The notes under the pieces: model-generated
Database searches by the model: none
What the model was told of the DNA's origin: nothing
Seen by the model: the letters and a program-made list of their open reading frames with translations, nothing else
Made by a program: the position numbers and the translations under genes
Origin: Sphaeroforma arctica JP610
Lineage: Eukaryota
Direction: 5' to 3'
DNA: 36,578 bases
Assembly (NCBI RefSeq): GCF_001186125.1
Contig: NW_014040475.1
Location: 14,771 to 51,348, forward strand
In this document: positions 4,451 through 32,991 of the stretch, piece by piece
How the letters are laid out: each line of letters begins with the position of its first letter
Position numbering within the stretch: the first letter of the stretch is position 1

Positions 4451-5440
4451 CGTTCATGTCGAATATGGGTGAGGTCAGATTGTGCATCGGTGGTGGCTTT
4501 GTGATAGTTGTTGCGGTAGGTGATAGCGGTGTTTGCATCGTTCTGAGAATGCGTACTTAAGTGTTTCTCTCACACGCGGGAGTCCCGGTATAGCTTACCG
4601 CTTCTACCGGTAATATTTCTGATAACTCTAATATCAGAAATATTCTAATCCTAATTCCAAAACTCAGTAATTGATTATTCTGGGTTTCGGGGTTTGGATT
4701 GGCTTTTTGTTATTCTGGTCCCTAGATGCTACAGCCCCCCCAACTTTATACTTCTGAGCCTGCGTAGGAGTCGAAAGTGACATCTTACAGTACTAGATTA
4801 TCTAGAGGTTGGTGTTTGTATACAGGAAATAATTGTCCCTTAGGGAGCATAAGATGAAAAAGCTGCCACCAATATATATTACATATTACCGATTAATTAA
4901 ATTTATACTATAACAGGAGTCCTCTACCACGCTCATCGTCGTCAGTCTTGACCGGTGCTCTCGATTGATCTCAACTTGGCGTAGGAAAACGCATCTCAAC
5001 GGTGGCTCTACAGCCGAATCTCTGGTCCTTGTCCCTCTGGTATGTGGGGGGATCATGCTTCTAGGCGAGAAAAGTGGGAGTGTCCTGTGGTGTCAGTGAG
5101 ACTTGCTTAGGTCCCCCGCTTCGTGCGCTGTCTGTGGCTCGCTGATTTTTCATCAGTGCTCGTCGTCGCTGGCTTCTTTGGCCTTGACTGCCTTCTTTTA
5201 CGTCTACGGCGTTGACGGTATGTTGTAATGACAGCAGTATCTGCGATGTCTGATTCATGCGTCCAGGTACGCTCACCATCTGTCCATTGCAGTAGGTCCT
5301 CTTGTGATCCATCACCTCGGATGGATGGCCTGTCGTCGACTATCGAAGAGAACTGAGTCTCTTCGTTTGGTTGAGCGTGATTGTTGGAAGTAAATGCTTC
5401 CGGAGCACTAGCCCTTTTTACGAGGCCAAGTAGCTCATCA

Positions 5441-6213
5441 TGTAATAGACGGGCCTCTACATTAGACTCTATATTATAACCGTACTCTTAAGCAGTACGT
5501 ATATTAAAAACGTACTCTTATTAGTACAAGGAACTTAAGTTTCCTAAATAGTTTTTAATGGTTTTATTTATTAATACCTTATCCATTTTTCATATCAGAT
5601 ATTTGGACGAGGCCATTAAAAGGCCCCAGTAAAATACCAAACATAAGATTTGGTCTATTTCTATGAATAGAACTATATTTACTTTCCAAATCTATTTATA
5701 TCTGAATACTTCGGTAGCGAGATGGCTCAACCGAATATAGGTTTCTAGGGACTATTAAAGTTACCTAGTTTATCCTCCGATCAGCCAACCAGATGTGCCA
5801 GTCTGATGAAGGCTAAGTCGGTAATTCTTGATAAGTGGCAAGTTATTGGTTAATGCAATAACTAAGGACATCAAGAGTATTTTTCTTTGTTCTTTTATTT
5901 TATATTTTTCTAAAGATAGGATTTTATGAGTCTCTCGGATTCGCTCCAACGAAACATATCATATTTTCTAATAAAGCGATAACGAAACACTAAATACAAT
6001 CCCTTCGGCGAAAACAGTACTGAGAGGATTATATATATTCAATGTCTCAGCCTCACAATCCCTCAGAGTATTGCAGTTTTCACGAGGCATACCTAACTTT
6101 ACTAAAAGTCTCATTTCGTTTATTTACTTTGAAATTTTCACGATACTTAGAATTTACCTACGCGTTTATTTACTCTAAGGCGTTAATATCGCCTTGATAG
6201 ACCTAATCTTACA
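5441..6213 (+). mobile_element. Solo LTR, Gypsy family A, inserted in the B2 integrase C-terminal region
   Basis: TGTAA...TTACA; matches 10749-11539; TSD ATCA (5437-5440, 6214-6217). Removing it restores PEYPDSITDELLGLVKRAS (B1: PEYPNSVNDELIGLVKKAS). Confidence 0.92.
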
Positions 6214-6582
6214 ATCAGTGATCGAGTCAGGATATTCGGGGGCTTTAGTTCCATCAAGGTTACAGACAAAATACCCGTTGCCCTCCCTGCATACTATTTT
6301 GTATGGTTCGCCATTTGGTGCTGTTAACTTGTTCATTTCACCTTGATAGCGAACCATGACAAGGTCCCCTTCCTGGAAGTTTACATACTTCTTTTGGTAT
6401 TTTCGATCGTATGCTGCGCGCATCTTTTCTTGATACTGTGCAACATTAATATCTAATTGTGACCTGATGGCTTCTTCTAGATTTTTCTGTCGCTCTTCCC
6501 AAAATACTGTTGTACTGGGCGCGGTCACTGGCTCATTGTAGTCCGTGAGTTGATTCTGTCTGCGACCAAGGTACACATTAAA

Positions 6583-6619
6583 GGGGGGGGGTTTTAGGGT
6601 TTTAGGGTTTAGGGTTTTA
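6583..6619 (+). repeat. Telomere-like tract G9(TTTTAGGG)2TTTAGGGTTTTA at the integrase deletion junction
   Basis: Read directly; absent from the B1 copy. Confidence 0.75.
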
Positions 6620-6620
6620 A

Positions 6621-7040
6621 GTATGGAGACTTAGCTCCTATCTTTGCTACTAATGTGACGCCCCATGGGGTCTTGCCACAAGCCTTCTTGCCTTCTTTGA
6701 GGAAAGTATTGTTTGTGTTTTCTACTAGCATCGGGTCTTCTTCTAGTAAGGACAAGAACTTTCGAAACCACGATTTATTGGGGTAGTAGGGTAGACATAT
6801 TGTGATGCTGGTTGCCTCGTCAATGACTTTGTCAGGACATCAGGTATGAGTTCCCCTGGTGGATTCGCCCATGCATTCCCTTCCTGCGCCCACTTTTGTT
6901 ATAGCGCATCCTGTTCTTTGGTGTAGTATTTATCTGTGTGTGCATTGTGTGCCGATTCAAACAGATCTACTGTGAACTTCCCAAACCGTCGTTCCGCTTC
7001 TTGGTAGAATCTGGGATGTAACATCCAGTCTATAGCTGAT
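6621..7040 (-). pseudogene. Dam-like N6-adenine methyltransferase domain, B2 copy (inactivated)
   Basis: DWMLHPRFYQEAERRFGKFTVDLFESAHNAHTDKYYTKEQDAL*QKWAQEGNAWANPPG...PWGVTLVAKIG; in-frame stop and NPPW changed to NPPG. Confidence 0.8.
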
Positions 7041-7737
7041 ATGGTTATGGGCATGTTCGTTTCCAATATGGTGTACTCTTGGCTATTATGTGTTGCCTCA
7101 TTCGCCATATGTAATACCTTTAACTCTTTAATACTGAAAGTATCTTCATGGAGAGGCGACAACATGTCTGCCATCTGGTTGTCCTTGCCTGGGACATGTA
7201 TGACGGAGAAATGGTGGTGGAACGTTTCTGCTATTCATTTGGCTAGCATTGGGTATAACGTCTGTCGACTGTTCATTTGCATAAACACTTTATGATCCGT
7301 TCACAGTGTTATGTCCCCCCCCTTTGATGTATTCGGAGAAATGTTCCAGGCTGTATACCAGTGCTAGTAGCTCTTTGGTATTTGTGCCATAGCGTTGTTG
7401 TGCTGGATTCAAGCCTTTTGAGAAGTAAAGAATGTCTCTTCTAATCCATCGATGACTTGAAATAAACACCCTCCTATGCCATAGTCACTAGCATCATTCA
7501 TTATTTGAAACGGTACCCTATCGACAGGGTATGCTAACGTCGCTGAACAGGCGATGGCTTCCTTGAGTTCTTCCCACTTATTTATTAGTTCCGGAGTCCA
7601 TAACATGGATATGTTCTGGTTCGTTTTTCCTTTCATTAGGTTCCGAAAGTGTTTCGTTGTGTGAGCAAAGTTAGGGGCATGGTCTCGCATGTTGTTTGCT
7701 AGTCCCACTGCTTTGCCTTTTTGTGTAGCATCCAAGG

Positions 7738-10748: not shown

Positions 10749-11539
10749 TGTAATAAGCCGGGCCTCCACAATAGACTCTATGCATAAACGTACTCTTAAG
10801 CAGTACGAGGAACTTAAGTTTCCTAAATGTACTCTTAATAGTACGAGGAACTTAAGTCTCCTAAATGTGCTCTTAATAGCACGAAGAACTTAAGTTTCCT
10901 AAAATGGTTTTAATGGTTTTATTAATTAAATCTTTTCTATTTAACATATCAGATATTTGGATGAGGCCATTAAAAGGCCTCAGTAAAATACCAAACATAA
11001 AAGAGTTGGTCTAGTTCTATTAATAGAGCTTGATTTAATTTCCAATTTTATTTATATCTGAATACTTCGGTAGCGAGATGGCTCAACCGAATATAGGTTT
11101 CTAGGGACTATTAACGTTACCTAGTTGATCCTCCGATAAGCCAACCAGATGTGCCAGTCTGATGAAGGCTGAGTTGGTAATTCTTGATAGTGGCAAGTTA
11201 TTGGTTAAGACAATAACTAAAAACGTCAAGAGTATTTTTATTTTTATTTCTTTTTTCTAAAGATAGGGTTTTATGAGTCTCTCGGATTCGCCCCAGAATA
11301 GAGCGACAACGAAACACTAAATAAAATCCCTTCGGCGGAAACAGTACTGAGAGGATTTTATATAGGCAATGTCTCAGCCTCACAATCCCTCAGAGTATTG
11401 CTGTTTTCACGAGGCAAACCTAACTTTATTAAACGTCTCATTTCGTTTATTTATATCGATATTTACACGATATAGAATTTACCTACGCGTTTATTTATTC
11501 TAAGGCATTAGTATCGCCTTTATTAGACCGAATCTTACA
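10749..11539 (+). repeat. Family A 5' LTR with three ~38-bp palindromic tandem units (10789-10905) and a TATA-like TTTATATA near 11357
   Basis: TGTAA...TTACA; matches the solo LTR at 5441-6213. Confidence 0.9.
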
Positions 11540-11671
11540 CATTTTAAAGTTAGCAAAAGTATTAATTACTTAGACTACTTAAGCGTAAAGGTAAGTTAAC
11601 TACCACAACATTTTTTTTCTCTTGTCTAAGCTAGTCGTTAAGAAACAAGCTAGTAGTCATAAGTTAAGATT

Positions 11672-13807
11672 ATGACCAAGAAAGACAACACTCCTTCTAA
11701 GAAACGTAGAGCTGAAAAGAAGAAGATGGAGAGAGAAGTCGCTAACGCTGACGCAGCTATTACTGCTGCAAAAGCAACCGACGCCGCTGCTGATGCATTT
11801 AAGCGCACTGTAGCCAAAGTACTTGCCTCTGACAATTATAGTCAAAAGGACAATGCTTCAGATAAGGAAGTAGCCACTCCGCTTAAGGAGACTACTCCTT
11901 CTGACAGAGCCCGAGGGCCAACTATTGCCTCAACTTCAAAGCTTGCATTAACGAAGCCAAGAAGTGAGACAAGGAATACGTCTCAAGACGCCCCAACCCA
12001 TTCTTCTGACGAAAATCAGAAAGGAAAGTCCCCAATTATGAGGGCATTCCCAATTATAGGGGACAAAAACAAATCTCAGAAGGAACCTATTATGGAACCA
12101 GAAGAGGAAGCAAGCTCAAGTAGAAAAACAGAATCTACGTCCGAGACTTCTAAGCCGAAGCACATAAGTAAGTTAATTTCTAAATACGCTGATCTTAAGA
12201 ATCAGTTAGCTACTATTATGAAAGACTTGACTGTCAAAAATGTAGATCAATTAGAAAGATCAGGAAAACGTACACAGCGCTTACGCGAGCATGTTTCCCC
12301 GGGCATTACTGAAGCCCTGCAGAAGTGGACAGAACGTCGACAGGCAATTACGCCCAAAGACTCAAGCTCGACACCTGAGTCATATGATCCAGAGGTGCAC
12401 AGCGTCGATATACCGTACGAGGCATTACTGCCAGAAGAACATGCTAATCATTTGCCTGTTCTGCCACCCGGTCGTGAGTCACCTGTCCTCAAAGGTATTC
12501 TCCGCCACTTGTACCCAATTGGGAGGATAATCGTCGGAAACCAGTTAAGACTGGGTATGTTATTCCGACGCCAAGGGATATTAATTATCCCCGCAGACGT
12601 GTGAACGACGTCGTGTTTAATCGCTTCGACCGCACGGCTTTACATCAACCCGCAGAGGATTTCCACTCTGGCGAGGTGACCGACCTTAATAAATCGGTCG
12701 ACGACTATACCAATAAAATGGAAGTCGCCCATGCTGCGCATCATGCTGATGACGTAGCATACTATGCGAATATTATTGCGATTAAGCAAAAGCGCATAGA
12801 CCAACTACGTCAGGCCGAACGTGGACAAGACCACAGGGACAACCAGAAGTACAAGGGACAGATCAGTCGACTTAAGTCGAACTGGGATGCCAACAGCAAG
12901 CAGGTCGAGTTTATAAACAACCATGACCTCGACACGCTAACTCGTACGCTTAATGCGTTTACGGTCATGTTGGAGACGAATGATATCGCTCCCCAGCAAT
13001 GGATCTCTGCCTTAATGCAGACATTTGACCCTACAGGGATCAGTTATCTGATCCTGCAGCGACACCAGCATGAGCTAGACTTTTGTCGTGACTGGCCAGC
13101 TGTGTGTTGGTTGGTCACATCCTTGTTAAGTAAGGATATGCGTAGCCCTGGGTTAAGCTCAATTTTAAATGAACCAGCCGAGAACACGCCCATTCAGAGT
13201 TATATTCTGAAGTTAGACACTGACCTGAAACGTCCCGATATAACAAAGGACAAGGCACAGCGATGGTACGAATTCCTGGTTATGCACGTGTTCTGTAAGA
13301 ACATAGGGAATAACGACCGTGAGAGTCTGTACACCGAGTTGCGACGTAAACACGCGACTGAGGCTCGAGACAAGGGACATGAAACAAAGTTTCATCTATC
13401 CCGACTTACATGGGAACAGTTTTATGATACTGTATCCACTCTTTTTCCCGCACATCGAGTAACATCGAAGGGAAAAGCGGCTGTTAAGAAGCCACGGGTA
13501 CGTATCCAGGCAGACCTCAAACGAGAGACCCCAACATACACGTGCTCGCGAATCCACTTTAACCACGCGACCCAATAAACGGGCACGCGCAGGAGCGAAG
13601 GACATGGAACCTCAATTTAAGGAGATTAAGAAATGTGCCGACGCCCAGTGTGGGTATGACATGTACCAGTTAACCCCTAACGGTTATTGGAATGGTAGAC
13701 ATGCATCCACCTGTACACACTTTCTTACCAAGTGTGACAAGTGTGAGAAGACCAACGGTTATCACACTAAGTCTTGTGACCGAAAGCCCAACATTAAATT
13801 GGAGTGA
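11672..13807 (+). pseudogene. gag: Family A gag in three frameshifted pieces, with C-terminal Cys/His knuckles
   Basis: ORFs 11672-12604, 12601-13578 and 13604-13807 (CADAQC...H...C; CDKCEKTNGYHTKSC); lies between the LTR and the protease. Confidence 0.75.
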
Positions 13808-13867
13808 CGGTACTACCAGGTACAATCATTACACAGACAATACAACAACTCTTTAAATGAGCGTGTA

Positions 13868-15084
13868 ATGATCCCTGTATATTGCAATGGAAATAAAATC
13901 CTTGCGTTGATTGATCCTGGTTCAGAAATTTCCTGTATATCCGATCGCTTTGCATTAATGAAAGATATCGAAAGGAGAACACAAACAACTCATCTCATTT
14001 TAGCTGATGATAAAACTGCTACGTGTGATACCATCGCCACAGATGTTAAAATCTCCCTGGCCGATGATAGGAGTATCACTACTCAAGCTGTGATAGTTAA
14101 TATGTCACAGAAGTACGACACTATAGTCGGAATGAGGGGTTTACTCACTCTAGGTATAACCGTAACTGGTCTACCAACTAACATAGATCAATTAAAGGAT
14201 CAATCAGACGATAACTGCCTGAATCCATATAAGCCCCCGTCAGACACAGTCAAGGCATTAATACCTGACTTTGCGGACAAAATCATGGATCTGATTCTTG
14301 TTAATAAGAAAATAAAGATCACAGATTGGGCAAAATTCCGCTTTAACGACGGATATGTCAGCCTTGACTTAACCAAGGTAGACTTTACACAGTTAAAGGG
14401 TTTTAAGACACGAGGCTGTTGTAAAAGAACAAGTTGAGAAATGGCTAGCAGATGGTGTGATAGAAATTATCTGTCAACAAACGCCAGTTAACTTGGCACT
14501 GCTAGCCGTAGACCAACATAACTCTGACGGATCGTTTAAGAAAGTCAGAGTATGTTTAGATATGAGTCCAATAAATAAATTATTGCCGACTCATAGCTTT
14601 CACTTACCTCGTATTAACGAGCTACTGCGAAGGATGGAAGGTGCTACAGTGTTTACAACTATAGACCTTACACAAGGATACCATCAAATGCAGGTATATG
14701 AACCCCACCGTAATACTTTAGCTTTACGTGGAAAGGCAAACAATACCGGTTCAGAGGTGCACCTTTCGGGTTACTCTCTCTACCAGCATTCTTCCAACAA
14801 GTAATGAAAGAAATGTTTGCAGACATGCCTAACGTGCAAGTTTATATAGATGACATAGTCATCTTTTCGAAGACTACAGGCGAACACGCCGCATTAGTCA
14901 GACGAGTCCTTAAGAGACTCAATGAGCAAAACTTCAAGATTAACGAAAAGAAATGCCACTTCGCAATGAGCGAAGTGCAGCTCTTAGGCTACCATGTATC
15001 TGGGGAAGGTATTAGATCGACCCCGGTAAGGTAGAACACCTGTTAGATTGGCGAACACCAACTACAGGAAGAGATGTTAACAGC
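13868..15084 (+). pseudogene. pol: Family A aspartic protease and reverse transcriptase, frameshifted
   Basis: ALIDPGSEISCIS (DSG/DTG-like); RVCLDMSPINK, LPRINELL, IDLTQGYHQ, VYIDDIVI (YIDD at 14843-14854). Confidence 0.92.
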
Positions 15085-17400
15085 ATGTGTGGGTTTGTAA
15101 ACTTCTTTTCAGATGGAGTACCACACTTAGCTGACTACCTTAAACCTTTTGGACACTTAAGATGTCATAAAGGCAAACTAGAAGACTTGTGGACTAAAGA
15201 GTGTGATGACGCATTTAAAGCGCACAAACACGCAGTCCAACAAGCCCCAGTTGTACAAGGGCCAGTCGATGGCGTGCCGTTTGAAATAGCAACGGACGCA
15301 TCAAACTTAGCCTTAGGAGGAGTATTATATCAGGTTATAAATAACAAACCTAGATATATACAATTCTTTAGTCGAGCAATGAATGCTTCACAGTTGAATT
15401 ATCCAACTATTAAACAAGAGCTATTAGCCATAGTGACAGCTCTAACACACTTCCGAAATTACTTATACGGAACAGTATTTACGCTGATGTGTGATCAGGA
15501 ATCTCTTCAATATATGAAAGGGATGAAACCCGACTCGCAATTACTGAGTCGCTGGCATGATACAATATCAAAGTTTCATTTTGATATAAAACATCTGCCA
15601 GGTATACATAACCATTTACCGGATATGTTATCACGCTTCGTATCGGACTTTAATAAATCCGTACGTGAGTTACTAGCCACTGACTGGAAGTGTAATCCCA
15701 GGTGGTTTGAACTGGCTCAAAAGATATATGGGCCAAATACCATAGATATGTTTGCTGCACATCATAATGCACAACTATCGAATTACAGGACTTTAAATCA
15801 TCCTATGGGAGACGCCTTTCAAATAGACCTTTCCCAACATAATGCGTGGGCTAATCCATCATGGCAGTTAATTGCCCAGCTATTAAATTATGTTCATATA
15901 CATAAAGCTACCATCACGTTGTGTTGCCCATTACGGAGTAAAGATCCATGGCTCAATAAATTTATCAGCATGATTCAATGCGAGCCAATATATTTAGATA
16001 GGGAAGTAGATATCCTATATCAGGGTACCCGAGCCATCCAGAAAACGCCCTGGAGACATACTATTATATGTCGTATAGGTCCCATTGGAACAACCAAATG
16101 GACCCCTTCTGAAACCTTCCTTTACAAGGTCAAAGAATCAGAGATTCCACTCTCTACCCAATTGAACGTTAAGCAGTTCAAAGGCAACACAGCATTTAGC
16201 GTCTGTGCACAAGAAATACAATCTACTAATGACACTGTTAAGAAGCGTCAGTCTCTAGCTAGGACTCTGTTTAATAGCATAAATTCCAAGCCCGAGGTCT
16301 TTCAAACCTTATTTTTAAAGGGATTAATGAAAGACAATCCTGAAGCGTATACACATATAGTGCGACTATTTAACAAGTCAGGTGACGCTCATGCAAAAAC
16401 AGGACAGGAGTCTGAAAACACTACAGACTTAGAGACCACGCAAGTGAATTCTCAACACTCTACCTTTATTCTGGAAGAGCAGAATGATGAAAACATTCTT
16501 GCTTGGCTGAAGCAACATCATAAGCTGAAGCACCAGAACGTAGTAGAAGCACTTAAAGATGCTAAGCGAAATGGGATCGCGCACCCTAAGCTGGCAACTT
16601 TAGTTGACAGAGTATATCCGTCATGCACAGACTGTGATCTCAATCAGATCAAGCGCTATGGTTTCGCACCGCTTAAGAGTGTGACTGAAGATGTTCCATG
16701 GCGCAGGGACATCATTGATCTGGTTGACCTGCCCACGTCCGAGCACACAGGCAACCGTTACGTATGCCACTTCTTTGATGTGGCGTCACGGTTTAACTTG
16801 CTCTATCCATTAAAAGATAAGAATACGCAGACCGTGGCAGAATTATGTTGCCAAGTCTTTGCTGACCACGGGTGGCCGGGTATTATGTGCACTGATAACG
16901 GTAGTGAGTTCTGCGATGACGTTATGGAATCGCTAGTACTCGTATCAGGCATATGCCATAAGAGAGGTGTGCCATATAAGCCGCAAACGCAAGGCGCGAA
17001 TGAGACGCGCCATAGAAGACTTAAGTTCTTCTTGCGTACTGCATTAACGGATGATGCAGATGATTGGCCGTACCACCTTAAGTGGGTACAAACACAGATG
17101 AACGAGTGTGCTGATCCGGTTACAGGAACTACACCCGCTCACTATTTTCGTGGCAGATATAGTGAGTTACAAATCCCTTTTAACAAGGACGAACCCGATC
17201 ACCATGAGTTACCATGGTTAGAGAAGGTCCAACGTATGTATAACGTTGTATATCCTTGCTTGCGAGAAATACGCAATATAGCCTTATTAAAAAGACAAAA
17301 GCGTTGGAACACTACCAAGAAGATAGCAGATTATCAGGTTGGTGACAGAGTTAACATCCGTCAACGTAATTCCGATGCTACTGTATTGACATCTAAATGA
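15085..17400 (+). CDS. pol: Family A pol C-terminal ORF: RT connection, RNase H, Dam-like MTase, linker, integrase (HHCC and DDE)
   Basis: One 771-aa frame: TDASNLALGG...ELLAIV...CDQESL (RNase H); IDMFAA...WANPSW (MTase, 15682-16080); H..H..CTDC, IIDLVD, TDNGSEF, PQTQGANE (integrase). Confidence 0.93.
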   Translation: MCGFVNFFSDGVPHLADYLKPFGHLRCHKGKLEDLWTKECDDAFKAHKHAVQQAPVVQGPVDGVPFEIATDASNLALGGVLYQVINNKPRYIQFFSRAMNASQLNYPTIKQELLAIVTALTHFRNYLYGTVFTLMCDQESLQYMKGMKPDSQLLSRWHDTISKFHFDIKHLPGIHNHLPDMLSRFVSDFNKSVRELLATDWKCNPRWFELAQKIYGPNTIDMFAAHHNAQLSNYRTLNHPMGDAFQIDLSQHNAWANPSWQLIAQLLNYVHIHKATITLCCPLRSKDPWLNKFISMIQCEPIYLDREVDILYQGTRAIQKTPWRHTIICRIGPIGTTKWTPSETFLYKVKESEIPLSTQLNVKQFKGNTAFSVCAQEIQSTNDTVKKRQSLARTLFNSINSKPEVFQTLFLKGLMKDNPEAYTHIVRLFNKSGDAHAKTGQESENTTDLETTQVNSQHSTFILEEQNDENILAWLKQHHKLKHQNVVEALKDAKRNGIAHPKLATLVDRVYPSCTDCDLNQIKRYGFAPLKSVTEDVPWRRDIIDLVDLPTSEHTGNRYVCHFFDVASRFNLLYPLKDKNTQTVAELCCQVFADHGWPGIMCTDNGSEFCDDVMESLVLVSGICHKRGVPYKPQTQGANETRHRRLKFFLRTALTDDADDWPYHLKWVQTQMNECADPVTGTTPAHYFRGRYSELQIPFNKDEPDHHELPWLEKVQRMYNVVYPCLREIRNIALLKRQKRWNTTKKIADYQVGDRVNIRQRNSDATVLTSK

Positions 17401-17999
17401 TTCAAGAATAGTGGTGGTCTTAATATCCTTAGAGTTCACAGTAGGCATATTGATAGCGCGAGATCAGAGTGACCTGATAAGTTGTTAGCGTGCAATGTAG
17501 TAGACTTTAAATAAAGTGCAAATGTATGTATTTATTTCTGGCCTCACCTTTGGTTTTATACCTAAGGTGTTTGTGCTAGTGTTCAGCCGCTTGGGCTGGC
17601 CAGGGTAAAAACTCATATGGTCAATATGAGAAATCTTATGCGGAACACTTTAACACTTCGATGCTTTTCTATTTCAACTTCTCTGCAACTAAATCTCACG
17701 CTGATCACATGATGCCTTTCCGCATAGGTTGTGACTTACATAGAACCGCAGCTATTATTAATATGTTGTGGTTGACATGCTTAATCCACTCTCGGGAATC
17801 GGTTGAGAACTAAATCTGCTCTCGGAAGTTGGTTAAGTAATAACTCAACTCTTGAGAGTACTTTGAGCAACTTGATTAGCTCTCGGGAGTGAGCTAACTC
17901 TGATGACTTAGCTCTCGGGAGTGAGTTAATTCTGATGACTTTAATAAATCAAAGATGGTTTCTTGCTGTAGAATCTGGCCTGAGACCTGTAGTCTCTCA
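17401..17999 (-). mobile_element. Copia-like 5' LTR (17483-17999), PBS and gag start, truncated
   Basis: Reverse-complement similarity to LTR 8856-9309 (TGAGAGACT...CACGCTAACA); PBS ACTTATCAGGTCACTCT (17466-17482); then MPTVNSKDIKTTTILES; ~31-bp CTCTCGGGA tandem repeats at 17789-17942. Confidence 0.8.
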
Positions 18000-20348: not shown

Positions 20349-22359
20349 AAAGCTTGGTGGTCGGAGGCTAACATGATAAACATGGTAGACATTGTGAATG
20401 CACACACTGATGAAGAAACGTTGTTAATAAATGCGAATGATATTGCTTACACACCCATTTCTTTACTTATAAATCCACGAGACCAAAGATTGCGCATAGA
20501 CATACAATTAATGGCACCACATATAATGCACTAGTAGATTCAGGAGCACAACACTCTTGTATGGACAGAAGTGTAGCAACTGAACTATACTCGCACAATC
20601 AGATGCAAGAGTACAACGCACAGGTTCCACTGAAGTATGTGATATAAACTACGGGAGGCAGAAAACCCTCAAACTGCTTCGAGATACTTGACCTCCCAGA
20701 CATGAAATCACCAATTCAATTAGGAATGGACATTCTACCATACTTGGGCATATACTTAGCAGGGATAATTAACCTACAATTACCAACAGATGTCAAGTGG
20801 GCATCACTTCTTACACCACATGAAGAAGACCCTAAACATGAACAGGTGTAAAGGATTCAGAGAACCACTATCAGACTTGTTCGAACAAAATGGTCAGATA
20901 CCACCAGATGTACACTGCAATCTATCAGATTCAGTGGTAGAGATACCAAGTCAAGAGGTCAAAGCCGAGAATATTCGTCATGCTAAAGTGAACTTTGTTC
21001 CACACAAATACATCCCACAAACAGATGAAAATGTTCAGAAATGGGTCAAAGATGGACACATATACAAAAGAACAACATCCACACAAGTGAACCTGCCACT
21101 ACTATCCACAGGAGAATTTGAACAGACAGGTCTGTTAAAGAAGGTATGCACATGTTTAGACTAGAGAGAAGTAAATTATCAACATGAACAAGACAAATTT
21201 GTTTTACCAAAGATAAAGGAAATACTCCACAACCTACAGGGTGCGCAATTCTTTTCTAAATTAGACTTAACAGGAGGCTTCCACCACTTTGAAGTACATG
21301 AAAATAGCCAACACTTCTTCACATTTTCATAGAGAGGAGCGCAATACTCACTCAAGTCAGCTCCATTTGGACTGCACTCGGTAGCAGCACAATTCCAAAG
21401 AGTGATGGCCAACCTCCTCATTGACATCAAAGGGGTACAAGTATATGTCGATGACATAGTCATCGCTGGTATGACAGAAGAAGAACATAGACAAACAGTA
21501 CGCGAAGTCGTCAAAAGACTTAATGCTGCTAACTTCAGGCTAAATCACAACAAGTGTGCGTTTGCGGTCAAGACAGTCAATATACTAGGCGTCAAAGTAA
21601 CCACCAAAGGGCTCAAAATAGACTCTGAGAAACAGAAACGCATGATTGACCGGCCTTTACCAAGAACCAAACGTGACTTACATCGAGCAGTCGGTCTAGC
21701 AAATTACATACGAGACCACATACCTCAGTTTGCACACATAACGAAACACTTCCGCAATCTCATGAGAGGCAAAATGAATCAAAATATAGCCAATCTTTGG
21801 ACACCAGAGCTCATTAAGAAATGGGAAGAACTCAAAGATGCCATTGCATGCTCAGCAACTTTGGCGTACGCAGTAGATGGAGTACCATTTCAGATCATGA
21901 ACGATGCAAGTGACTATGGCATAGGAGGTTGTCTGTTCCAAATTGTAAATGGAGTCAGAAGAGATATACTCTTTTTCTCAAACGGGCTCAACCCTGCACA
22001 ACCAAGATATGGGACAAATACTAAAGAGTTGTTAGCACTCGTATACAGTCTGGAACATTTTTCAGAATACATCAAAGGTGGCGATATACCATTGTGGACA
22101 GATCACAAAGCGTTATGCCAGATGAACAAGCAGCAAACGCTGCATCCTATGCTCGCGAAATGGATAGCGAAAACTTTTCATCACCACTTCACTATCATAC
22201 ACGTGTCAGGCAAAGATAATGAAGTTGCTGACATATTGTCACGACTACACGAAGACACATTCTACATCAAAACATTGAATGTGTTGAAAGAAGCCAATGA
22301 GCACATACACAATGGTCAAGAATGCGCTGACCTAGAAACAAACATACCCATCCTAGTGT

Positions 22360-22751
22360 CTGCCATATACAGGAAACTACATCCACGGCGCTTTCAAGAT
22401 GCAGAAGGCCTGTTCGGTAAATTCACCATCGATTTATTTGCAGCCACACACAATGCTCAGACCGTAAAGTTCTACACCAAAGAACAAAACGCGCTCCTAC
22501 AAAAGTGGGGAGATGAAATAAATGCATGGGCGAATCCTCCCTGGGAACTAATACCAGACGTGTTAGACAAAGTCATAGAGGAAGCCACAAGCATTACAAT
22601 ATGCGTCCCGTACTACCCAAACGCAACGTGGTTCCCCAAATTGATGTCATTACTTGAACAAGATCCGATGATAGTCGAAAACACAAAAACAACACGCTCC
22701 TAGAGAACGGCACAACAGCCCGTGGCAAAATACCATGGGGGGTCACATTAG
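22360..22751 (+). other. Dam-like N6-adenine methyltransferase domain, B1 copy, both motifs intact
   Basis: FGKFTIDLFAA (IDLF from 22428), NAWANPPW (NPPW 22533-22544), in frame with RT/RH in the 433-aa ORF. Confidence 0.88.
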
Positions 22752-23511
22752 GGAAAATATTATTTATTTCAAAAATGGCAAGTATGTATGATACAATGTA
22801 TGAACATATGGTATGGCTCTCATAGTCGCTGTAGTGGTTCAGGAAAGATTGATGGGAAGAAGTGGTCAGTAAATTCCCGTTTGAAGCTTGGGCCAAGTGA
22901 GTCGACAATGGAAGATATGTGCTGAGTCAATTCAAGCCGGTGTTGACAAAACACTGTTACTATCGAATGTTCCATATATTTGCTTGCTGACCTACTAGTG
23001 GTACGGATCGGGTCTGCGCCGTGTAGTGCCGCGGAATGGGTTAGTGCAGAGTACGAAATACCGAGAAGGACCAGGTTATCCGTCATAATCCGGTCGAAAA
23101 GCGAGGATGGGGGTAAGCCAATGCCGCACCAGACCACAGATGAATTCGGTATGTGTTGGCTGGTCTGGATCGGAAGTATCATAGTCGGAACCAACAAGCG
23201 CGATGATTTGGGTTGAACCGATATTTGGAAGTAGTACTTTAACAGCGTGATTAGCCGGGGTATGGGGAACATCTGTTAATGTGTCAGGGACGGGTGAGGG
23301 TACGGTGGTTCTTCAACATGCTGGAGAAAAGATCCAAGGTGTTCGTGGAGGGTCCAGATACCGTGGAAGTCATGGCACTCCTGTAATTGCTGAAGGAGGT
23401 CAGGACCAATGGGCGGCAGTTTCGGGCCTACCAGGATGTGTCGAATCAGTTGTTGGATGCAGGTAAAGTGGCTGGTAGTGAACTTGTGGCTACCGGGGCA
23501 GACAGGGCAGA
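22752..23511 (-). mobile_element. 5'-truncated non-LTR (LINE-like) insertion
   Basis: 10-bp TSD GTCACATTAG (22742-22751, 23512-23521); minus strand encodes CPVCPGSHKFTTSHFTC (CCHC) and ends in AAATAAATAATA; removal restores PWGVTLVSKIG. Confidence 0.72.
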
Positions 23512-25359
23512 GTCACATTAGTATCCAAGATCGGCACAAAGTCACCATACTTTGACCAAAAACTAACACACCCTGCAGTGAACACTGCGTCCATACACAT
23601 CACGGACAATTCCGCCGAGCTAGACACAATCAAGTATGAAGACTGAGCCACGCTCATAGCTCAACACCGCACAGTAGGTCACTAAACTGTCGATGAAACA
23701 GTAAACAAGCTCACACTAGATGGCCACACATGGTCTAGACAAAAGGAACATGTCAACCAATATATTGAGGGCTGTGTGCTCTGTCTCAAAAACTAAATTC
23801 ACAAAAAGGGATTCCACCCTTTACAATCAATAACGGCCGCATTCCCGGGCGACAGGATACAAGTGGACACCATCGGTCCCTTGATAGACTGGAATAGGGG
23901 CAACACATACGTTCTGGTATGGCTTGATGTACATTCTTCATATGCCATACTAAGACCGATGATGGACAAATCGGCAGCCACTGTTGCACGAACACTAGTT
24001 CCAATCATGCGTGAAGATGGATATCCACCAGTCATACAGACGGATCAGGGCACAGAATACGTGAATGACATACTCTCAAAATCATTGAGCAGGCACCGTT
24101 ACAACACTTAGTGTCCAGACCGTATCAACCCAAGGTAATGGGAGCAAATGAACGCTCACACAGAGACCCCATTCCTTTACTACGGAAATTTGTTGAACAA
24201 AATCCAGGCAACTGGTGCTCACGCCTCCCATTTGTCCAAATGGGCCATAACCTCCGTTCATCACGCAGACACAAATCACCAAGGTTCAATGTCTACTATG
24301 GGCGACGACAAAATCAACTCACCAACTATGACACAACAGTCAGTGCACCAGGTACAACAATACCATGGGAAACACGACTACAGCATCTAGAGGAGTCAAT
24401 ACGACCACAACTAGACGCCAATGTAACACAATATCAAGAGAAAATACGTTCAGCATTTGATCGCAAATACCAAGAGAAGTATGTACACTTCCAAGAAGGG
24501 GATAAGTGATGGTTCGCTTCCTAGGTGAAATGAATAAAATGACTGCAAAAAATGGAGGACCATACAAGACAGCAAGCAAAGAGGGCAACGGATATTTCGT
24601 CCGTAACCTTGATGGAACTCGTGCCCCCGAATATCCCAACTCAGTCAATGATGAGTTAATTGGTTTAGTCAAGAAGGCTAGCGAATCCGAGGAATTTACT
24701 ACCAACAATCAAGTCCAACCATCAGAAGTAACTCAATTCACCTCTATACTAGACCACAGAGAATCCACAAGAGGTGGAGGAACCCAGGATTAACTACTAC
24801 AATGGATAGATGGGGAGCGCACATGGACACATGAATCAGACATCGCAGATCCAGATATTCTTACGATATACCGACAGCGTAAACGACGCAAGCGAAGGCC
24901 ATCAAGGTCGAAGAAGTCAACAGCAACCAGCACTGATGAACGATCAGCGAGCAACTGGCAGTGCACGAGGCGGGGAACTTACCCAACTTTCACTGACACC
25001 AAAGAACTCTCCCACTTTTCTCACCTTGAAGCATGCTCTGCCCACACACCAGAGGGATAAGGACCAAAGACTCGGTTGAGAGCCACCGTTGAGATGCGTT
25101 TTCCTAAGCCAAGTTGAGATCAACCGAGAGCACAGGCCAAGACTGACTCCGATGAGCGTGATAGAGTACTCCTGTTATTTAGTATAAATTAATTTACTCA
25201 GTAATATGTTAGAATGGTTAATAGCGGCAGGTTTTTCATCTTATGCCCCCTAAGGGACAAGTTTTTCCTTGTACAAAAACACCAACCTCTAGATAATCTA
25301 GTCCTATAAGATGTCACTTTTTACTCCTACGCAGGCTGAGAAGCATAAAATTGAGGAGA

Positions 25360-25692
25360 TGTAGCATCCAGGGGCCAGAATATCAGAAAAGCCAATCCTA
25401 AACCCAAAACCCAGGATCATCAAATACTGAGTTTTGGATCTATGATCCATTATTTCTGATGATAGAGTGATCAGAAATATAGCGGGATTACCGGTAGATG
25501 ATACCGGGACTCCCGCGTGTGAGAGAAACACTTAAGCAAATATTGAATCTAGTGTAGAAAATACTAAACACAAATAAAGACTCAATGCGGGTCCTTCAGC
25601 CTAGGACTTTACCTAGCCTGTAGGATTCGCACTTGAGAAGAGGTCTATCGTTTCTTCTCGTCGTATCTTATAAGCTATTCTCAAACTCTACA
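25360..25692 (+). repeat. Family B1 3' LTR
   Basis: TGTAGC...CTCTACA, directly after the PPT. Confidence 0.92.
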
Positions 25693-26654: not shown

Positions 26655-29600
26655 TGTGGTCAGATATACTCAATAAGGTTTATTAGGTAATTTGAGGTTT
26701 ATTTTGAGAAACGACATAAACCCAGTTTAGGGTTTATGATCAAATTTGTACACATGTCAAATAATAGAAACAATGGTTGATTTATTATTCAATAAAAGTA
26801 CAACGTATCCCCGTGTATGAGGGGAGTACGTTGAGAAACTGTTATCTTTGCGTATTTGACTGCATTTTTAACAAGCTTACTAGTTGCACTTTATTGGAAG
26901 TAAAGTTAGAACCGTCATAGTATAAGGAAGACTGAAGAATGTCTTACATTTTTTTCGCTAAGATTCGAGAATCAACATTGAGACGATGGGTGAACCCACC
27001 AATGGGTCGCATGAGAAGCGAAAATATATCAACAGGGCCTTTCGAAGCAGACCAACAACTGAAGAGTGAGGATAGCGGGTTTGACAGTAGTGAGCCGAGC
27101 TTGCCATCTTTGTTGTCAAACTCGGAGAGCGAGCCTGAAGATGGTGAAGAAGATGAGGACCACACGAATAAAGAAGTAATCCAAAAACGGGAATCACGTA
27201 ATGAAATACACCGACCAATGAACATGGGACAACAGAGATTGGGAAGATGGTATATGCACAATATCATTAGAAGAGAAAGGATATATGAATATGTAAATAA
27301 GCTTATCCGGCGTCAAGACGAACCACTAACACCATTAAGACGAGCAGCAAGTGAATCTGGAATAACGGCTATACGCGGACATGAACATGACGAAGGAAAG
27401 AATGATGAGCAATCAACATGGGGATTATATACCGAACAAGGTACGTCTCTATGGACATGGAGGAGAAGTGACACGTTACGTTAAGATATAGGCAGAATTA
27501 AGTATGAGAGTGGGTACCAATGTAAACGTGTATGTATTGATAGTATGAGTACACGGAGTAGTGTTACATAACGAGCGGCGCAGGATCCTCATGGTCCTGA
27601 GGCACTAGATAACCGACGTGAGAGATTGTCCGGAGTGATCTATTCGCAGCAGCAGAATCAACGATTCGAGGCGGACGCAATTGCGAGAATCGTTGCTGCG
27701 GCAATCATCGCTAACAACTCCAACGACACCAGTGAACCCAATGCCGGTTAATGACAAGGAGTCTCGTCCAACACTGGAAAGTATTGTGGCGGACCGCCAA
27801 GTACTTCACGCGCGGATGCTTAGACTATCCGAGGAGTTGTGTAGAGCAGTCGAGGCGGATGATTTACCACGGGCCGAAGCCCTACGGGGGGGTACTAGAA
27901 AACTTTACAAGCTACACATGAATCTCGCCCGGTAACCTAGCATGAGCTTTGGGAACCGAGAAGCTGGCCATAATGACCGTCGAATAGATACCAACTACAC
28001 AATGCCTTGGAGCGAGACACTAAGGAAGCCCTTTTGGAGGCGTTGAAGAACGCGCAGATCTCGGGGTAATTTTATAGGGTTCGTAGCCATTTCAAGGCTG
28101 AGCAGTCCACCTTGGATTACATTATGTCCAACCACCAGCGGTTAGTATATTTAACACCGGGGATACAAATAACACAGATTTGTTCTCACGAAACTCATGC
28201 CACAGTCGACCTTACGTTCCGTAAGTTGGCGAAAGGACACTCTCGGGTTTCCAACATACCAATTATGGAACAGATGAAACAGCTCATGGAGAATCACAGA
28301 CGTGCCCATAAACGCAGCCAGGCAGATGCAGAGTTCAAGCAAAGTCGTTATTGGAAGATTCTCTTGGCTCCCGAACCTATAAACGGACACTACAACTACA
28401 CACCAACTGGCACTTGATGGAGACCGACGAATTGTTGCAGCTTCTTAGCCCAGACATTCAGGAGGCACAGACGAGAGCCACTGCGCGGATGTCAAACCGT
28501 CGACCCCACAACAACGATCACCAACGGGGGGACACACAGTTGCAGCGTGCGACACAGACAGCCACCAACCATGGTAACAACGTACACCAACGTCGAGCCC
28601 AACTACGACATGTGGCGGGTGCCAGGCACAGGCGCCACCAGGATTACGGCATATCCCTCGCTGTCACAATTATAAGGCAGCGACACAGGACAACCGTGTC
28701 CAATATCAGTTGAACGGTCGCATGTTCCGAGCCCTAGTAGATTCGGGCGCAAACATAAGCTGTATATCGCAGGCATCCGCAGAGGCACTAGGCCTACCAA
28801 TTTTCCCGGCTCGTCCTGATTCATATATATACCTGGCGGCGCGCACTCGGCGACTGGGGACGACGGAGGTTATACCAATTAGATATAGAACGTCCATAAC
28901 GAAAGGTTCGTTAGAATTGATGAATCTGCCAGTAGGAATCGACGAGATCAAAGGGGTGGACATCATTCCTGGATTGGGACTATACTTAGGTGGCCTACAA
29001 TCACCATTGGCTCCTCGGCGACAAGCTCCGGATCTAACCCAGCCTGAAGGCATACGCACGGAACTGAAATCAGTCCTGGAGGTGAACGCGGCGATTACTG
29101 ATAGTACACACTGCCGGTTGGAAGGGAGTGAGGTAGCCATACCGGTTTCTCGAGAACAGGCGATGAATATGCGGCGATCAATGAGGAACTTCGTGTCAGA
29201 CCGGTGAATACCATATGTAGAAGAACAGGTACAGAGCAAGAGATATTGCACAACATTAGACATCATCTCGGCGGCATATCATCGTCTACCGATTCACCCA
29301 GATTCGCATTACCTGTTCAGTTTCACATATGGACGCCACCAGTATTCATTTACGTCGGCGCCATTTGAATTACACGTCTTCGCCCAACAGTTCCAACGAA
29401 CCTTGAGTACAATATTGGACGCCTTCCCGTGCAGCATTATATTGACGATATAGTGATAACAGGAGATGACTACGAAGAACATATAGCTACGGTTAAGGAG
29501 GGGATACGCCGACTCACAAATCACAGCTTCAAGTTGAATCCGGATAAATGCCACTTTGCAATCGGGGAGGTTATGATCCTAGGAAAGAAGGTATCGGCAG

Positions 29601-30208
29601 CGGGTATTGATATCGATTTTGAGAAACAGGCGAAGCTGTTGGATTGGCCGACACCGCAGCGCTACAAGGATAGCATCGGCGTTAGGGTTGGCGAGCTTTT
29701 TACACGAACATCTTCCCAATTTTGAGCACATAGTGGCGCCACTCCGAGAATTCTGCAAGTTGAAACCAAACGAGTTGATTGGATCACGTTGGGAATCCCG
29801 CCACGCGGAGGCGTGGACGGCTAAGAAGACGGCGATTGACAATGCGGTAGCCTTACACTTTCCCGTGGAGGATATACCTCTTAATCTGGAGACGGATGCT
29901 ATTGACTATGACATCGGGGGAGTGCTGTTCCAGTGGGTCGATGAGAAGAAGCACTATTTCATGTTTTTCAGTCGCTCAACCAGGCACAACAGAACTATAC
30001 GACGCCAATAAAGGAACTTTTGGCGCTGGTCTATAGGCTAACCCACTTTCGGGGATTCCTCGACGGACAGCGTTTTGCGGCTTTCACGGACCACAAGGCG
30101 TTAGTTTACATGAACACGCAGTTGAAGTTGAACCCCATGCTCCAGCAGTGGCACGACATAATAGCCCCGTTTAATTTCACTATATCGCATATACCAGGAG
30201 GGGGGGGA

Positions 30209-31538
30209 ATGTACTGTCCGCGAAGGGACAGCGGAAGGTGGCGCACCGGAAGTATTCTACGCCGACTGCTGGCAGCTGTTTCCGAATTACTTTACGCAAG
30301 CACAGAAGATATTCGCCCCCAATGACGTGGACGTTATTGTGCACGATAGTTGGGGTATCGGTTTAAATAAGGTTTGCGATATTCCCTGCGGTCAGAGTAG
30401 ACGCGCGGTCTGGATCTGCGATGCTTGGATCGGCAATCACGAGCAAGGTGACCTGGTTTGCTACAATTAAAGCACTTTCGTTCTGCTGTGGCCGAAAGTG
30501 CTCTCTCTCCTCCTCGATTCTCTGTATTGGAGGCCGATGTTTGGATTTCCTCCATATCAAATTTTCGGAGATATTCGCAGAGCTCCTCGTAACTCATGAC
30601 GTCAGTATCAACTGTGTTGAGATGAGTTCTTGCTGCTTTAAAACGTTCATTGAGACCTTCCTTCAAGACGGTCTACAAGACGGTGGAGCCTCGCGTTTCT
30701 CCAATTCCATTTTCTTCAAATTAATATCACCAATAAAGGCCTCCAGAGTTTCGTTACTCTTCTGTGTTTTTGCCCAGAGCTCCTTTCTCAAACGGCCGAT
30801 TCCTCCCTGGGTGTTAATCTTAAACTTGGTTTCCAATGCTTTGAAGAACGCGTAGGGTTCCTTCATGATATGGAGTAAACCCTGTTGAAGTCGTCGAGAG
30901 ATCGTACGATAAATTGGCTCAGACGCGGCTCCACGATCCTCTTGAGTAAATGTTTCACGTTGAGTCTCATAGTAGTCGTCGGGTGGTGTAGCGGCTTCGA
31001 TCAGTTGTAGGCGACCCTGTTTCATCAGGATCATATCCAATTGAGCTTTCCATTGGTCCCACTGGATCGGCTTATCCAAAATCATTAGTTTAATTTTTGG
31101 TTTCAAATCGAAGCTTGTCATTCTCAGAGTAGAGGTAAAACGGACCTAATAAGTTATTGTTCTCAGATATTAAAGTATCTTAAAGTGTTTTAAGTTTTAA
31201 GTGAATAGTTCTCATTTATTTGATTCGAGTCCCTGCTTTTATATACATTGGACTCGTAATCCTTGAGCCATTGAAAAACACCTCTTAAGGTGAAAAAGGT
31301 TCTCACTTAATATATGATCCAATCCAAAGGCGGCGTCGCCACGTCTTCAACTGATCGTGGCTTCCATTGTAATCTTTGGCCTTATACGTTTAGATTGTAC
31401 TCTTCTGATATTTAGGGATGCCCTTATGCCCATCAGAGATTTTCTATAATGATGATTCCGTACTCCCGGCACTTCGGCTCCGAGATTAATTTACATCGGT
31501 AATATTTCTGTGTCACTCTCTGAGTTTAGATTCTCTCC
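30209..31538 (-). mobile_element. gag: Ty1/Copia fragment: 5' LTR (about 31155-31538), PBS and frameshifted gag with CCHC knuckle
   Basis: ORFs 30663-31121 (WDQWKAQLDMILMKQG) and 30334-30666 (CFNCSKPGHLARDC); PBS ACTTATTAGGTCCG (31141-31154); boundaries approximate. Confidence 0.82.
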
Positions 31539-31599
31539 TTGGTTGATGCTGGAATAAACCTTGTTGAGCCTCCGGTGTTTGACCGTAGTTTTATGCTTG

Positions 31600-31795
31600 G
31601 TAAATAGTTCTGGTTTACTGTGATCAATAGACGTGTTTGCAACACCGGGGGATGTGCAACTACCTCGATTCTGGACATATGGCGAGCAGGGAGGTGCCTT
31701 TCGGCATAATTGGGCGTTGATTAACGGATGGATGAATCCGCCCTGGAAACTTGTACACAAGATGTTTCGGTAGATCAAGTCCGATGGCGCGTCGT
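31600..31795 (+). pseudogene. Dam-like methyltransferase domain, family C copy (not in the ORF track)
   Basis: Manual translation from 31624: SIDVFATPGDVQLPRFWTYGEQGGAFRHNWALINGWMNPPWKLVHKMFR*IK (NPPW 31735-31746). Confidence 0.85.
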
Positions 31796-32991
31796 ACGAA
31801 TCCTTTCAAAATCGGTTAGGATTTGCCGAGCCCCGGTATTTACCACGACCTCGTTCTCTGGACACGGCACGAGATATCTCAATAGCGGTAACCAGTGCGG
31901 AGGCTCAGTCAGCGTTTGTCAATGCGTGACCGGAAGAATAACAACGACGCACACAACTGACCCAAGCCCAACACGAGCAAGGACACCATGACGCGACGGA
32001 CACAGTGACACAACTCCAACAGAATGGCCACGTATGACCGGGGGCACTGGAGTTAGCAACTGAAGCTAAGCGACAGTGCAGTGCGTGCTTGGGTCAGGTC
32101 ACACTGAAGAAGGGGGTTCAACTGTTGGTCAGTATAGACGCTAGTTATCCGTGGGACCACATTCAAGTAAATTACATCCCAATGCCTATTGTCTGCAGTC
32201 GGAAGAACAAGTACGTTCTCCATGTTCTAGACATCGCATCCGGGTATTCGATCCTACGCGCCACACCTGACATATCAAAGGAAACCACAGCGCAGACGTT
32301 GATTGCAATTTTTGGAGAACACGGGTTCCCCCGGAAGATGCAGTACGATATGGGTACTGAATTTGTTTATAGTGTAGTGGCGCTCATTGTTCGGGAGGTT
32401 GGGATGATGCACGAAATCTCACCACCATACCGACCCCAAGTACTAGGGGCCACGGAACACCGACACAAGGAGATTTTCCGATCAAATCAGATCTGCTGTG
32501 AGACTACGCCCCAAGCTTGGAATGAGCGACTGCCATTTACGATGCTTCACCAAAACCTTCGCGTGTCTCGCCGACACAAAAGTGCTCCTTTCAGCGTATA
32601 TTTTGGACGCCGCCATGTCCCTTCGCGGATTTTACCGACAATATCCCAGAGAATCAGCCAGTTACGAATGAGACGTGGGCTCAACGACTCGATCGCCTCC
32701 AGGATAATATCTTAACAACGCTACATAGATTGACGATGCGTTACACAGATACTTTGACGAATAATTTCGACCGCCTCCATGCAGATGGTTTAGTGCACTT
32801 TGAGGAAGGCGACGTGGTGATGGTCAAATCGGAAGGCGGCACATCCAAGGCAATGCGCCCCCTATGTCGTGAAAGGCTGGAATTGACAAGGGCACGATCT
32901 GTCTCATAGGGATGGTTCGACTCCGAATTCAAGGGTCGTCCGGATAGGGTTGAACTGATCCGTTTGGTATACCGTAGTACCGATCCCCCGC

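What the first reader, a model, noticed from the sequence alone, without database searches (positions are those of the whole stretch)
15085..17400. Ty3/Gypsy pol with a Dam-like DNA adenine methyltransferase fused between RNase H and integrase
Seen: in one uninterrupted frame RNase H is followed by DWKCNPRWF...GPNTIDMFAAHHNAQL...DAFQIDL...NAWANPSW...ITLCCP...W...PWRHTIICRIG (15682-16080) and then an HHCC/DDE integrase. Established: D-x-F-A (SAM-binding) followed by NPP[W/F/Y] (catalytic) is the signature of phage Dam-type amino-methyltransferases, including the MT domain after RNase H in DIRS retrotransposons. Those elements use a tyrosine recombinase; canonical Gypsy pol is PR-RT-RH-INT with no MTase. 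Inference: this is an integrase-using LTR lineage encoding its own N6-adenine (or N4-cytosine) writer, packaged with Pol and able to mark its cDNA or insertion site. NPSW here is one C>T change from NPPW. Novelty in the literature is unverified.
Basis: partly seen in the sequence, partly recalled or inferred. Interest (0 to 1): 0.93.

Follow-up and report, generated by a model that had tools for sequence, protein, structure and literature searches.

The report
Dead Gypsy retrotransposon carrying adenine methyltransferase
This is a broken copy of an abundant Ty3/Gypsy jumping gene, likely from the protist Sphaeroforma, whose enzyme chain carries a predicted adenine-methyltransferase domain between RNase H and integrase; the reading is right, but a May 2026 preprint already described such elements in that species.

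Summary
Observation confirmed. 15016-17400 is one 794-codon frame: RNase H, a Dam-like domain (15679-16077), a linker, then an HHCC/DDE integrase. The domain folds at pLDDT 93 and matches phage N6-adenine methyltransferases (TM 0.71-0.74) and PCIF1 (Z 10.6). It is no chimera: 8 of 30 scanned relatives carry RH-Dam-integrase in one protein, and the window holds three more decayed copies. NPSW is private to this copy; at least 99.6% of depth in 4 of 4 runs gives NPPW. The copy is dead (three breaks in PR-RT, no 3' LTR found). Its RT groups with an Abeoforma element inside Ty3/Gypsy (98.8/100). Sphaeroforma arctica proteins match window copies at 70-86% over parts, so the host is likely that ichthyosporean. 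Novelty is refuted: bioRxiv 10.64898/2026.05.21.726589 names 'DAM-LTRs', including an ichthyosporean lineage in S. arctica; the scan also met such elements in other genomes. Catalysis is unproven: that paper's E. coli assay was negative. Substrate is the open question.

The parts
10749..11539 (+). Candidate 5' LTR (TG...CA, 791 bp), 132 bp before the first ATG; link to this element inferred from adjacency only
   Evidence: 86% like 5508-6213; no target duplication around it, so not a solo LTR
11663..13807 (+). Broken gag-like region in three frames (11663-12604, ATG 11672; 12478-13578; 13463-13807 with a Cys/His knuckle-like end). Gag assignment by position only
   Evidence: no Pfam hit in any of the three
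13808..14437 (+). Retroviral-type aspartic protease and start of RT
   Evidence: RVP_2 E 8.5e-5, above cut-off
14397..15034 (+). Reverse transcriptase in two frames; breaks near 14400, 14711 and 15013-15015
   Evidence: RVT_1 E 0.0027 and 4.2e-20; one search shows other copies differ at these places; intact relative P0001 reads through
15190..15576 (+). LTR-type RNase H
   Evidence: RT_RNaseH_2 E 1.7e-29, RT_RNaseH E 9.9e-29
15679..16077 (+). Dam-like (PF05869-type) amino-methyltransferase domain; DMFA at 15745, NPSW at 15853 (NPPW in the family)
   Evidence: family state
16084..16500 (+). Poorly conserved linker
   Evidence: 7-29% identity to six relatives
16501..17400 (+). Integrase: HHCC 16519-16635, D 16717, D 16894, E 17002; stop at 17398-17400; intact relative P0001 continues about 150 residues further
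5441..6213 (+). Solo copy of the same LTR with a 4-bp target duplication (ATCA), inserted in another DAM-LTR copy
20850..25692 (+). Second DAM-LTR family, decayed copy: RT-RH-MT (NPPW; domain 22374-22724, interrupted near 22750-23510), integrase, repeat at about 25360-25692 taken as its 3' LTR
   Evidence: (80% identity to P0008 over 615 residues)
4556..7714 (-). Third copy (second family), RH-MT fragment with MT at 7033-6639 and integrase tail
   Evidence: 81-85% identity to SARC_00333 (P0168)
28578..32909 (+). Fourth, more distant DAM-LTR copy; MT split at about 30338/31624 by a nested insertion; NPPW retained

Best explanation
This is a dead copy of an abundant Ty3/Gypsy LTR retrotransposon of the ichthyosporean DAM-LTR type, likely in Sphaeroforma, whose Pol carries a Dam-like methyltransferase-fold domain between RNase H and integrase, and in intact copies that domain likely methylates adenine N6 on the element's own reverse-transcription product. 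Shown here: domain order, fold prediction, conserved DxFA and NPPW in the family, Gypsy-type RT, conservation of the domain as strong as RNase H (identity part about 0.95). From established Ty3/Gypsy biology: Pol is packaged with the RNA and cut by the element's protease. Inferred: the domain binds SAM, acts inside the particle on the RNA:DNA hybrid or new cDNA, and the mark is then kept by host AMT1 at ApT so that new insertions sit in transcription-permissive chromatin. That model is the preprint's own proposal (mechanism part about 0.55). This copy makes no working Pol.
For: One open frame RH-MT-INT. Model at pLDDT 93.2, pTM 0.88 from a 78-sequence alignment. Best viral matches are phage DNA N6-adenine methyltransferases, E 6e-8, TM 0.71-0.74; best PDB matches are PCIF1 (Z 10.6, rmsd 2.5, 124 aligned), then KsgA/Erm/Dim1, T4 Dam (Z 7.8), M.TaqI and E. 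coli Dam (Z 7.7). Among 155 aligned domains D is kept in 150, F in 147, N in 132 and the two prolines in 152 and 148. MT identity to six relatives is 31-71%, against 31-68% for RNase H, 18-62% for the integrase core and 7-29% for the linker, which points to purifying selection. RT clade with Abeoforma P0003 at 98.8/100, DIRS-type RTs apart at 100/100. The MT tree puts it in a 25-member group with Abeoforma and S. arctica proteins (FastTree 0.915). Preprint: more 6mA-marked insertions and higher expression for DAM-LTRs than other LTRs in S. arctica and A. whisleri.
Against: No activity is shown here or in print: expressed DIRS, DAM-LTR and adintovirus DAMs did not raise 6mA in dam-minus E. coli. 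Iyer et al. judged DIRS1 MTase domains likely inactive (passage). The 6mA enrichment is a correlation that host AMT1 alone could produce. The Pfam Dam score of this copy is below cut-off. The host species rests on partial protein matches of 70-86%, not on a genome match (no genome held). The LTR link rests on adjacency and no 3' LTR was found.
Confidence: 0.55

Rival explanations
1. Same element, but the domain works like PCIF1 on RNA: it methylates adenosine in the element's genomic RNA, cap region or primer, and the 6mA seen on insertions is secondary to transcription.
For: PCIF1 is the top solved-structure match by fold (Foldseek E 6.2e-5; VIA Z 10.6) and the top, weak, sequence-profile match (E 0.06). 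Iyer et al. place DIRS1 MTases in the PCIF1 clade (passage). [quoted passage not shown] This would explain the negative dsDNA assay in E. coli.
Against: Phage DNA methyltransferases match better than viral PCIF1-like proteins in BFVD (E 6e-8 against 7.1e-5), so the PDB ranking may reflect which structures are solved. The domain is about 135 residues and lacks the rest of the roughly 490-residue PCIF1 chains. The preprint's tree derives the eukaryotic DAM clade from prokaryotes.
Confidence: 0.2
2. Same element, but the domain is a non-catalytic nucleic-acid or SAM binder that tethers the integration complex to 6mA-marked or transcribed chromatin, or chaperones the template.
For: Negative heterologous assay; Iyer et al.'s view that DIRS1 domains are inactive; some relatives have altered motifs, such as NIPF in P0012 and no NPP match in P0024. 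Its place just before integrase would allow release as an MT-IN fusion (inference).
Against: DxFA and NPP(W/F) are near-invariant across the family and NPPW is kept in 10 of 12 relatives checked; a pure binder would be freer to lose them.
Confidence: 0.2
3. The domain is an N4-cytosine methyltransferase.
For: N4C and N6A enzymes share the fold and a related motif IV (established knowledge, recalled).
Against: All named matches are adenine enzymes; the family motif is NPPW/NPPF, not the SPPY that I recall for N4C enzymes.
Confidence: 0.03
4. The fusion is an assembly chimera or a DIRS fragment nested in a Gypsy pol.
For: No listed contig in the four laid runs spans the whole stretch. The window is a nest of insertions.
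Against: P0001 is an independent 1376-residue ORF with RT-RH-Dam-integrase, 70% identical in the domain. 8 of 30 scanned hits have RH-Dam-integrase in order. Three more window copies have the same order in part. Depth is present in all 30 bins and no listed joint removes the domain.
Confidence: 0.02

Closest known systems
Ichthyosporean DAM-LTR lineage (Fernandez-Moreno et al., bioRxiv 10.64898/2026.05.21.726589, 22 May 2026; whole main text read; figures and supplements not seen)
   Same: Ty3/Gypsy RT, PF05869-type DAM with NPP triplet, integrase, no chromodomain; nearest named proteins are from Abeoforma whisleri (44-46% over the domain) and Sphaeroforma arctica, two of the paper's three species.
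   Different: Nothing of kind. This copy is frameshifted and has NPSW. [quoted passage not shown]
DIRS-order retrotransposons with an MT domain after RNase H (Iyer et al. 2016, PMC4738411, passages; de Mendoza et al. 2018, PMC5890265, passages)
   Same: Same domain family in the same place after RNase H; many of the 150 listed hits are 600-780-residue RT-MT proteins whose RTs form a separate clade.
   Different: Here the RT and RNase H are Gypsy-type and a DDE integrase follows in frame. DIRS use a tyrosine recombinase in a separate ORF.
Phage DNA N6-adenine methyltransferases of Pfam PF05869
   Same: Best structural matches in BFVD, TM 0.71-0.74; Pfam Dam hit.
   Different: 13-20% identity; embedded in a eukaryotic polyprotein; target and activity not shown.
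PCIF1/CAPAM cap-specific adenosine methyltransferase
   Same: Top PDB fold match, Z 10.6, rmsd 2.5 over 124 residues.
   Different: 12-17% identity; only the catalytic core is shared.
KnitGypsy-Dnmt3 of Klebsormidium (PMC5890265, passages)
   Same: A Gypsy element that carries a DNA methyltransferase.
   Different: That enzyme is a C5-cytosine DNMT, structurally unrelated according to the paper.

Membership tests
DAM-LTR, ichthyosporean lineage | PF05869-type DAM domain with NPP catalytic triplet | tested here: met
   Pfam E 0.0016 for this copy (the paper's screen used 1e-5, which P0001 at 7.4e-6 and the second window copy at 9.7e-14 pass); NPPW is the family state
DAM-LTR, ichthyosporean lineage | RT branches in Ty3/Gypsy, not DIRS | tested here: met
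   reference RTs were database hits labelled by Pfam or source name, not Repbase entries, and 'DIRS-type' is my label for the separate clade
DAM-LTR, ichthyosporean lineage | DAM and RT group with Abeoforma/Sphaeroforma/Pirum elements | tested here: met
   RT clade with Abeoforma P0003 98.8/100; MT group with 4 Abeoforma and 2 S. arctica proteins, FastTree 0.915; no Pirum protein was identified in the set
DAM-LTR, ichthyosporean lineage | No chromodomain | tested here: met
   No Chromo hit in the focal ORF or in full-length P0001, P0003, P0008
DAM-LTR, ichthyosporean lineage | Ichthyosporean host | tested here: inconclusive
   SARC_02119 80% and SARC_08637 72% over parts of the focal domain, SARC_09892 86% to copy 2, SARC_00333 81-85% to copy 3; no host gene or genome match tested
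DAM-LTR, ichthyosporean lineage | Raised 6mA and expression on insertions | not testable with these tools
   Needs nanopore methylation data; reported for the class in the preprint
Ty3/Gypsy LTR retrotransposon | Order PR-RT-RH-INT with HHCC and D-D-X35-E integrase | tested here: met
Ty3/Gypsy LTR retrotransposon | Two LTRs (TG...CA), primer-binding site, polypurine tract, target duplication | tested here: inconclusive
   One TG...CA repeat upstream and a solo copy with a 4-bp duplication; no 3' LTR in the window; the sequence after the LTR does not begin with TGG
DIRS order | DIRS-type RT with tyrosine recombinase instead of DDE integrase | tested here: not met
   Gypsy-type RT, rve integrase in frame
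Active amino-methyltransferase | SAM-dependent methyl transfer | not testable with these tools
   Motifs and fold only; published E. coli test negative

The most novel reading that the evidence does not exclude
The DAM-LTR domain is not a double-stranded-DNA Dam but a PCIF1-like enzyme that marks the element's own RNA or RNA:DNA intermediate inside the particle: a retrotransposon-encoded nucleic-acid writer, which would explain the failed E. coli assay. The hybrid idea is in the preprint and the PCIF1 link for DIRS in Iyer et al.; RNA methylation by an LTR element's Pol was not found in print (0 papers; PCIF1 occurs 0 times in the preprint). Intact natural copies (P0001, P0008) make it testable.
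Probability: 0.2. Interest if true: 0.65.

Novelty: already known. Interest (0 to 1): 0.2.

Why it matters
If the domain is active, a transposon writes a host 'active gene' mark on its own new copies and so escapes silencing. That idea and this lineage are already in a 2026 preprint, so this locus adds a confirmation, not a discovery. Its practical value: it shows that the family is abundant and keeps NPPW, and it points to intact natural copies for the missing biochemical test of substrate.

Tried and rejected
Single-sequence fold gave pLDDT 46.7 and was not used. Word-index searches with the focal domain found only P0001 and nothing among shorter proteins; the HMMER library search was needed. 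Profile search of PDB sequences gave nothing under E 0.06. The metagenome scan gave 2 loci from 27 candidates, matching RNase H only, with no MT hit in either. No whole genome is held. No listed holder run is on record as RNA, so expression was not tested. The LTR-gag junction was not tested with reads, and the wide VIA fold search was not obtained. No tRNA gene in the window. A 9-bp complement between the sequence after the LTR and LTR position 11420 was considered as self-priming and left as too short. ESM Atlas gave eukaryotic unnamed clusters at 0.95-0.96 and one cluster with Dam on 11% of members: a lead only. No look-alike in earlier scan findings by sequence. Rejected: chimera, DIRS membership, categorical novelty. 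Rows left out: trees used RTs of at least 165 residues (117 rows; 41 of these) and MT stretches of at least 95 residues and 35 bits (156 rows); Pfam architecture was scanned for 30 of 150 hits, picked for rank and length, so 8 of 30 is not a frequency.

Full report
Observation. The frame 15016-17400 (+) is open for 794 codons. Pfam finds RNase H (E 1.7e-29), Dam PF05869 (E 0.0095; 0.0016 for the domain alone, below the curated cut-off) and the integrase core (E 3.8e-8) in that order. Upstream lie a protease and an RT in separate frames, with breaks near 14400, 14711 and 15013-15015, so this copy is dead. A TG...CA repeat at 10749-11539 precedes the gag-like region; a solo copy of it at 5441-6213 has a 4-bp target duplication. 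No 3' LTR was found.

The domain is a real methyltransferase fold. It finds 562 proteins at E<=0.001. With a 78-sequence alignment it folds at pLDDT 93.2. The best viral matches are phage DNA N6-adenine methyltransferases (E 6e-8, TM 0.71-0.74). The best PDB matches are PCIF1 (E 6.2e-5; Z 10.6, rmsd 2.5, 124 aligned), then KsgA/Erm/Dim1, T4 Dam, M.TaqI and E. coli Dam. Across 155 related domains the D, F, N, P and P of DxFA and NPP are kept in 150, 147, 132, 152 and 148.

The fusion is a family trait. Twenty of 24 listed runs, from 9 studies, hold the stretch or part of it. In the four runs laid, thousands of short contigs cover all 30 bins; none listed spans the whole stretch, so they do not by themselves prove the join. 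At 15859 the other letter makes up 99.6-99.9% of depth in all four runs and gives Pro, so the family reads NPPW and NPSW is private. P0001 is an intact 1376-residue relative with RT-RH-Dam-integrase, 71% identical in the domain. Of 30 hits scanned, 8 have RH-Dam-integrase in order (P0001, P0008, P0010, P0012, P0019, P0024, P0026, P0035). The window holds three more decayed copies. Across six relatives the domain is about as conserved as RNase H and far more than the linker, which implies selection to keep it; dN/dS was not computed.

Placement. The RT groups with P0001, the second window copy, Abeoforma P0003 and five unnamed proteins at 98.8/100, apart from a clade of RT-MT proteins that I label DIRS-type (100/100) (same picture with 117 rows). 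The MT tree gives the same neighbourhood. The best named hits are Abeoforma whisleri proteins; Sphaeroforma arctica proteins match parts of the window copies at 70-86%. The host is therefore likely S. arctica or a close ichthyosporean; no genome was held to confirm it.

What is known. Fernandez-Moreno et al. (bioRxiv 10.64898/2026.05.21.726589; whole main text read; figures and supplements not seen) report DAM domains in non-DIRS LTR retrotransposons, five lineages, one of them an ichthyosporean Ty3/Gypsy-like lineage without chromodomain in Pirum, Abeoforma and S. arctica. They report more 6mA-marked insertions and higher expression for these elements, no activity in dam-minus E. coli, and propose methylation of RNA-DNA intermediates followed by AMT1 maintenance. 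Iyer et al. (PMC4738411, passages) put DIRS1 MTases in the PCIF1 clade and thought them inactive. Yu et al. (PMC9178792, abstract) show PCIF1 prefers ssRNA over hybrid, ssDNA and dsDNA. De Mendoza et al. (PMC5890265, passages) describe Gypsy elements with a cytosine enzyme. Earlier agents of this scan filed similar elements in other genomes under the same preprint; I had found the paper before that.

How it likely works. Shown: architecture, predicted fold, motif conservation, lineage. Established for Ty3/Gypsy (recalled): Pol is packaged with the RNA and processed by the protease. Inferred: the domain methylates adenine N6 on the hybrid or new cDNA, and host AMT1 keeps the mark so that new insertions stay transcribed (0.55). 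Rivals: PCIF1-like RNA methylation (0.2), non-catalytic binding (0.2), N4-cytosine (0.03), chimera (0.02). The PCIF1 ranking in PDB is tempered by better phage Dam matches in BFVD.

Verdict. Novelty: already known. Interest 0.2. The remaining open point is the substrate, which intact natural copies make testable.

Noticed in passing
P0028 and P0067 (database proteins): A different architecture: endonuclease/exonuclease/phosphatase domain then Dam before RT, followed by LTR-type RNase H and an integrase zinc finger (P0067 also has a protease first). A Gypsy-like pol with an EEP domain and Dam upstream of RT; source organisms not looked up.
   Followed up: no
P0129: dUTPase followed by a weak Dam hit in one 776-residue protein.
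   Followed up: no
RT tree: Chromodomain- or integrase-bearing MT elements P0012, P0024, P0035 group with the ichthyosporean clade and two short proteins without an MT hit (98.5/97), while P0019 lies elsewhere; some DAM-LTR lineages may share an RT ancestor. Sampling is thin.
   Followed up: no
window 30335-31629: Insertion that splits the MT of the fourth copy, with a 5-bp duplication (GACGT) and TATTG...CAATA ends; it holds a minus-strand gag-like frame with a zinc knuckle. Looks like a deleted Copia-type element.
   Followed up: partly
window about 22752-23510: About 760-bp insertion in the MT of the second copy, flanked by a 10-bp duplication (GTCACATTAG); no Pfam hit in its longest frame. 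Possibly a non-LTR remnant.
   Followed up: partly
window 17480-17680 and 9098-9265: A separate dispersed repeat begins just after the integrase; many contigs start to match at 17480-17490. It seems to have replaced the 3' end of the element.
   Followed up: no
window 11545-11553 and 11420-11428: 9-bp complement between the sequence after the LTR and the LTR itself, with no TGG primer site; weak hint of self-priming.
   Followed up: partly
window 1227-1553, 9310-9631, 25360-25692, 4556-4734: Four copies of a roughly 330-bp repeat, taken as the LTR of the second DAM-LTR family.
   Followed up: partly
window 35694-36300 (-): Tandem C2H2 zinc-finger frames with 90-bp period.
   Followed up: no
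window 7820-8020: Array of 5-bp units (CAGCC/CAGCT) followed by 7-bp CTGAGCC-type units.
   Followed up: no
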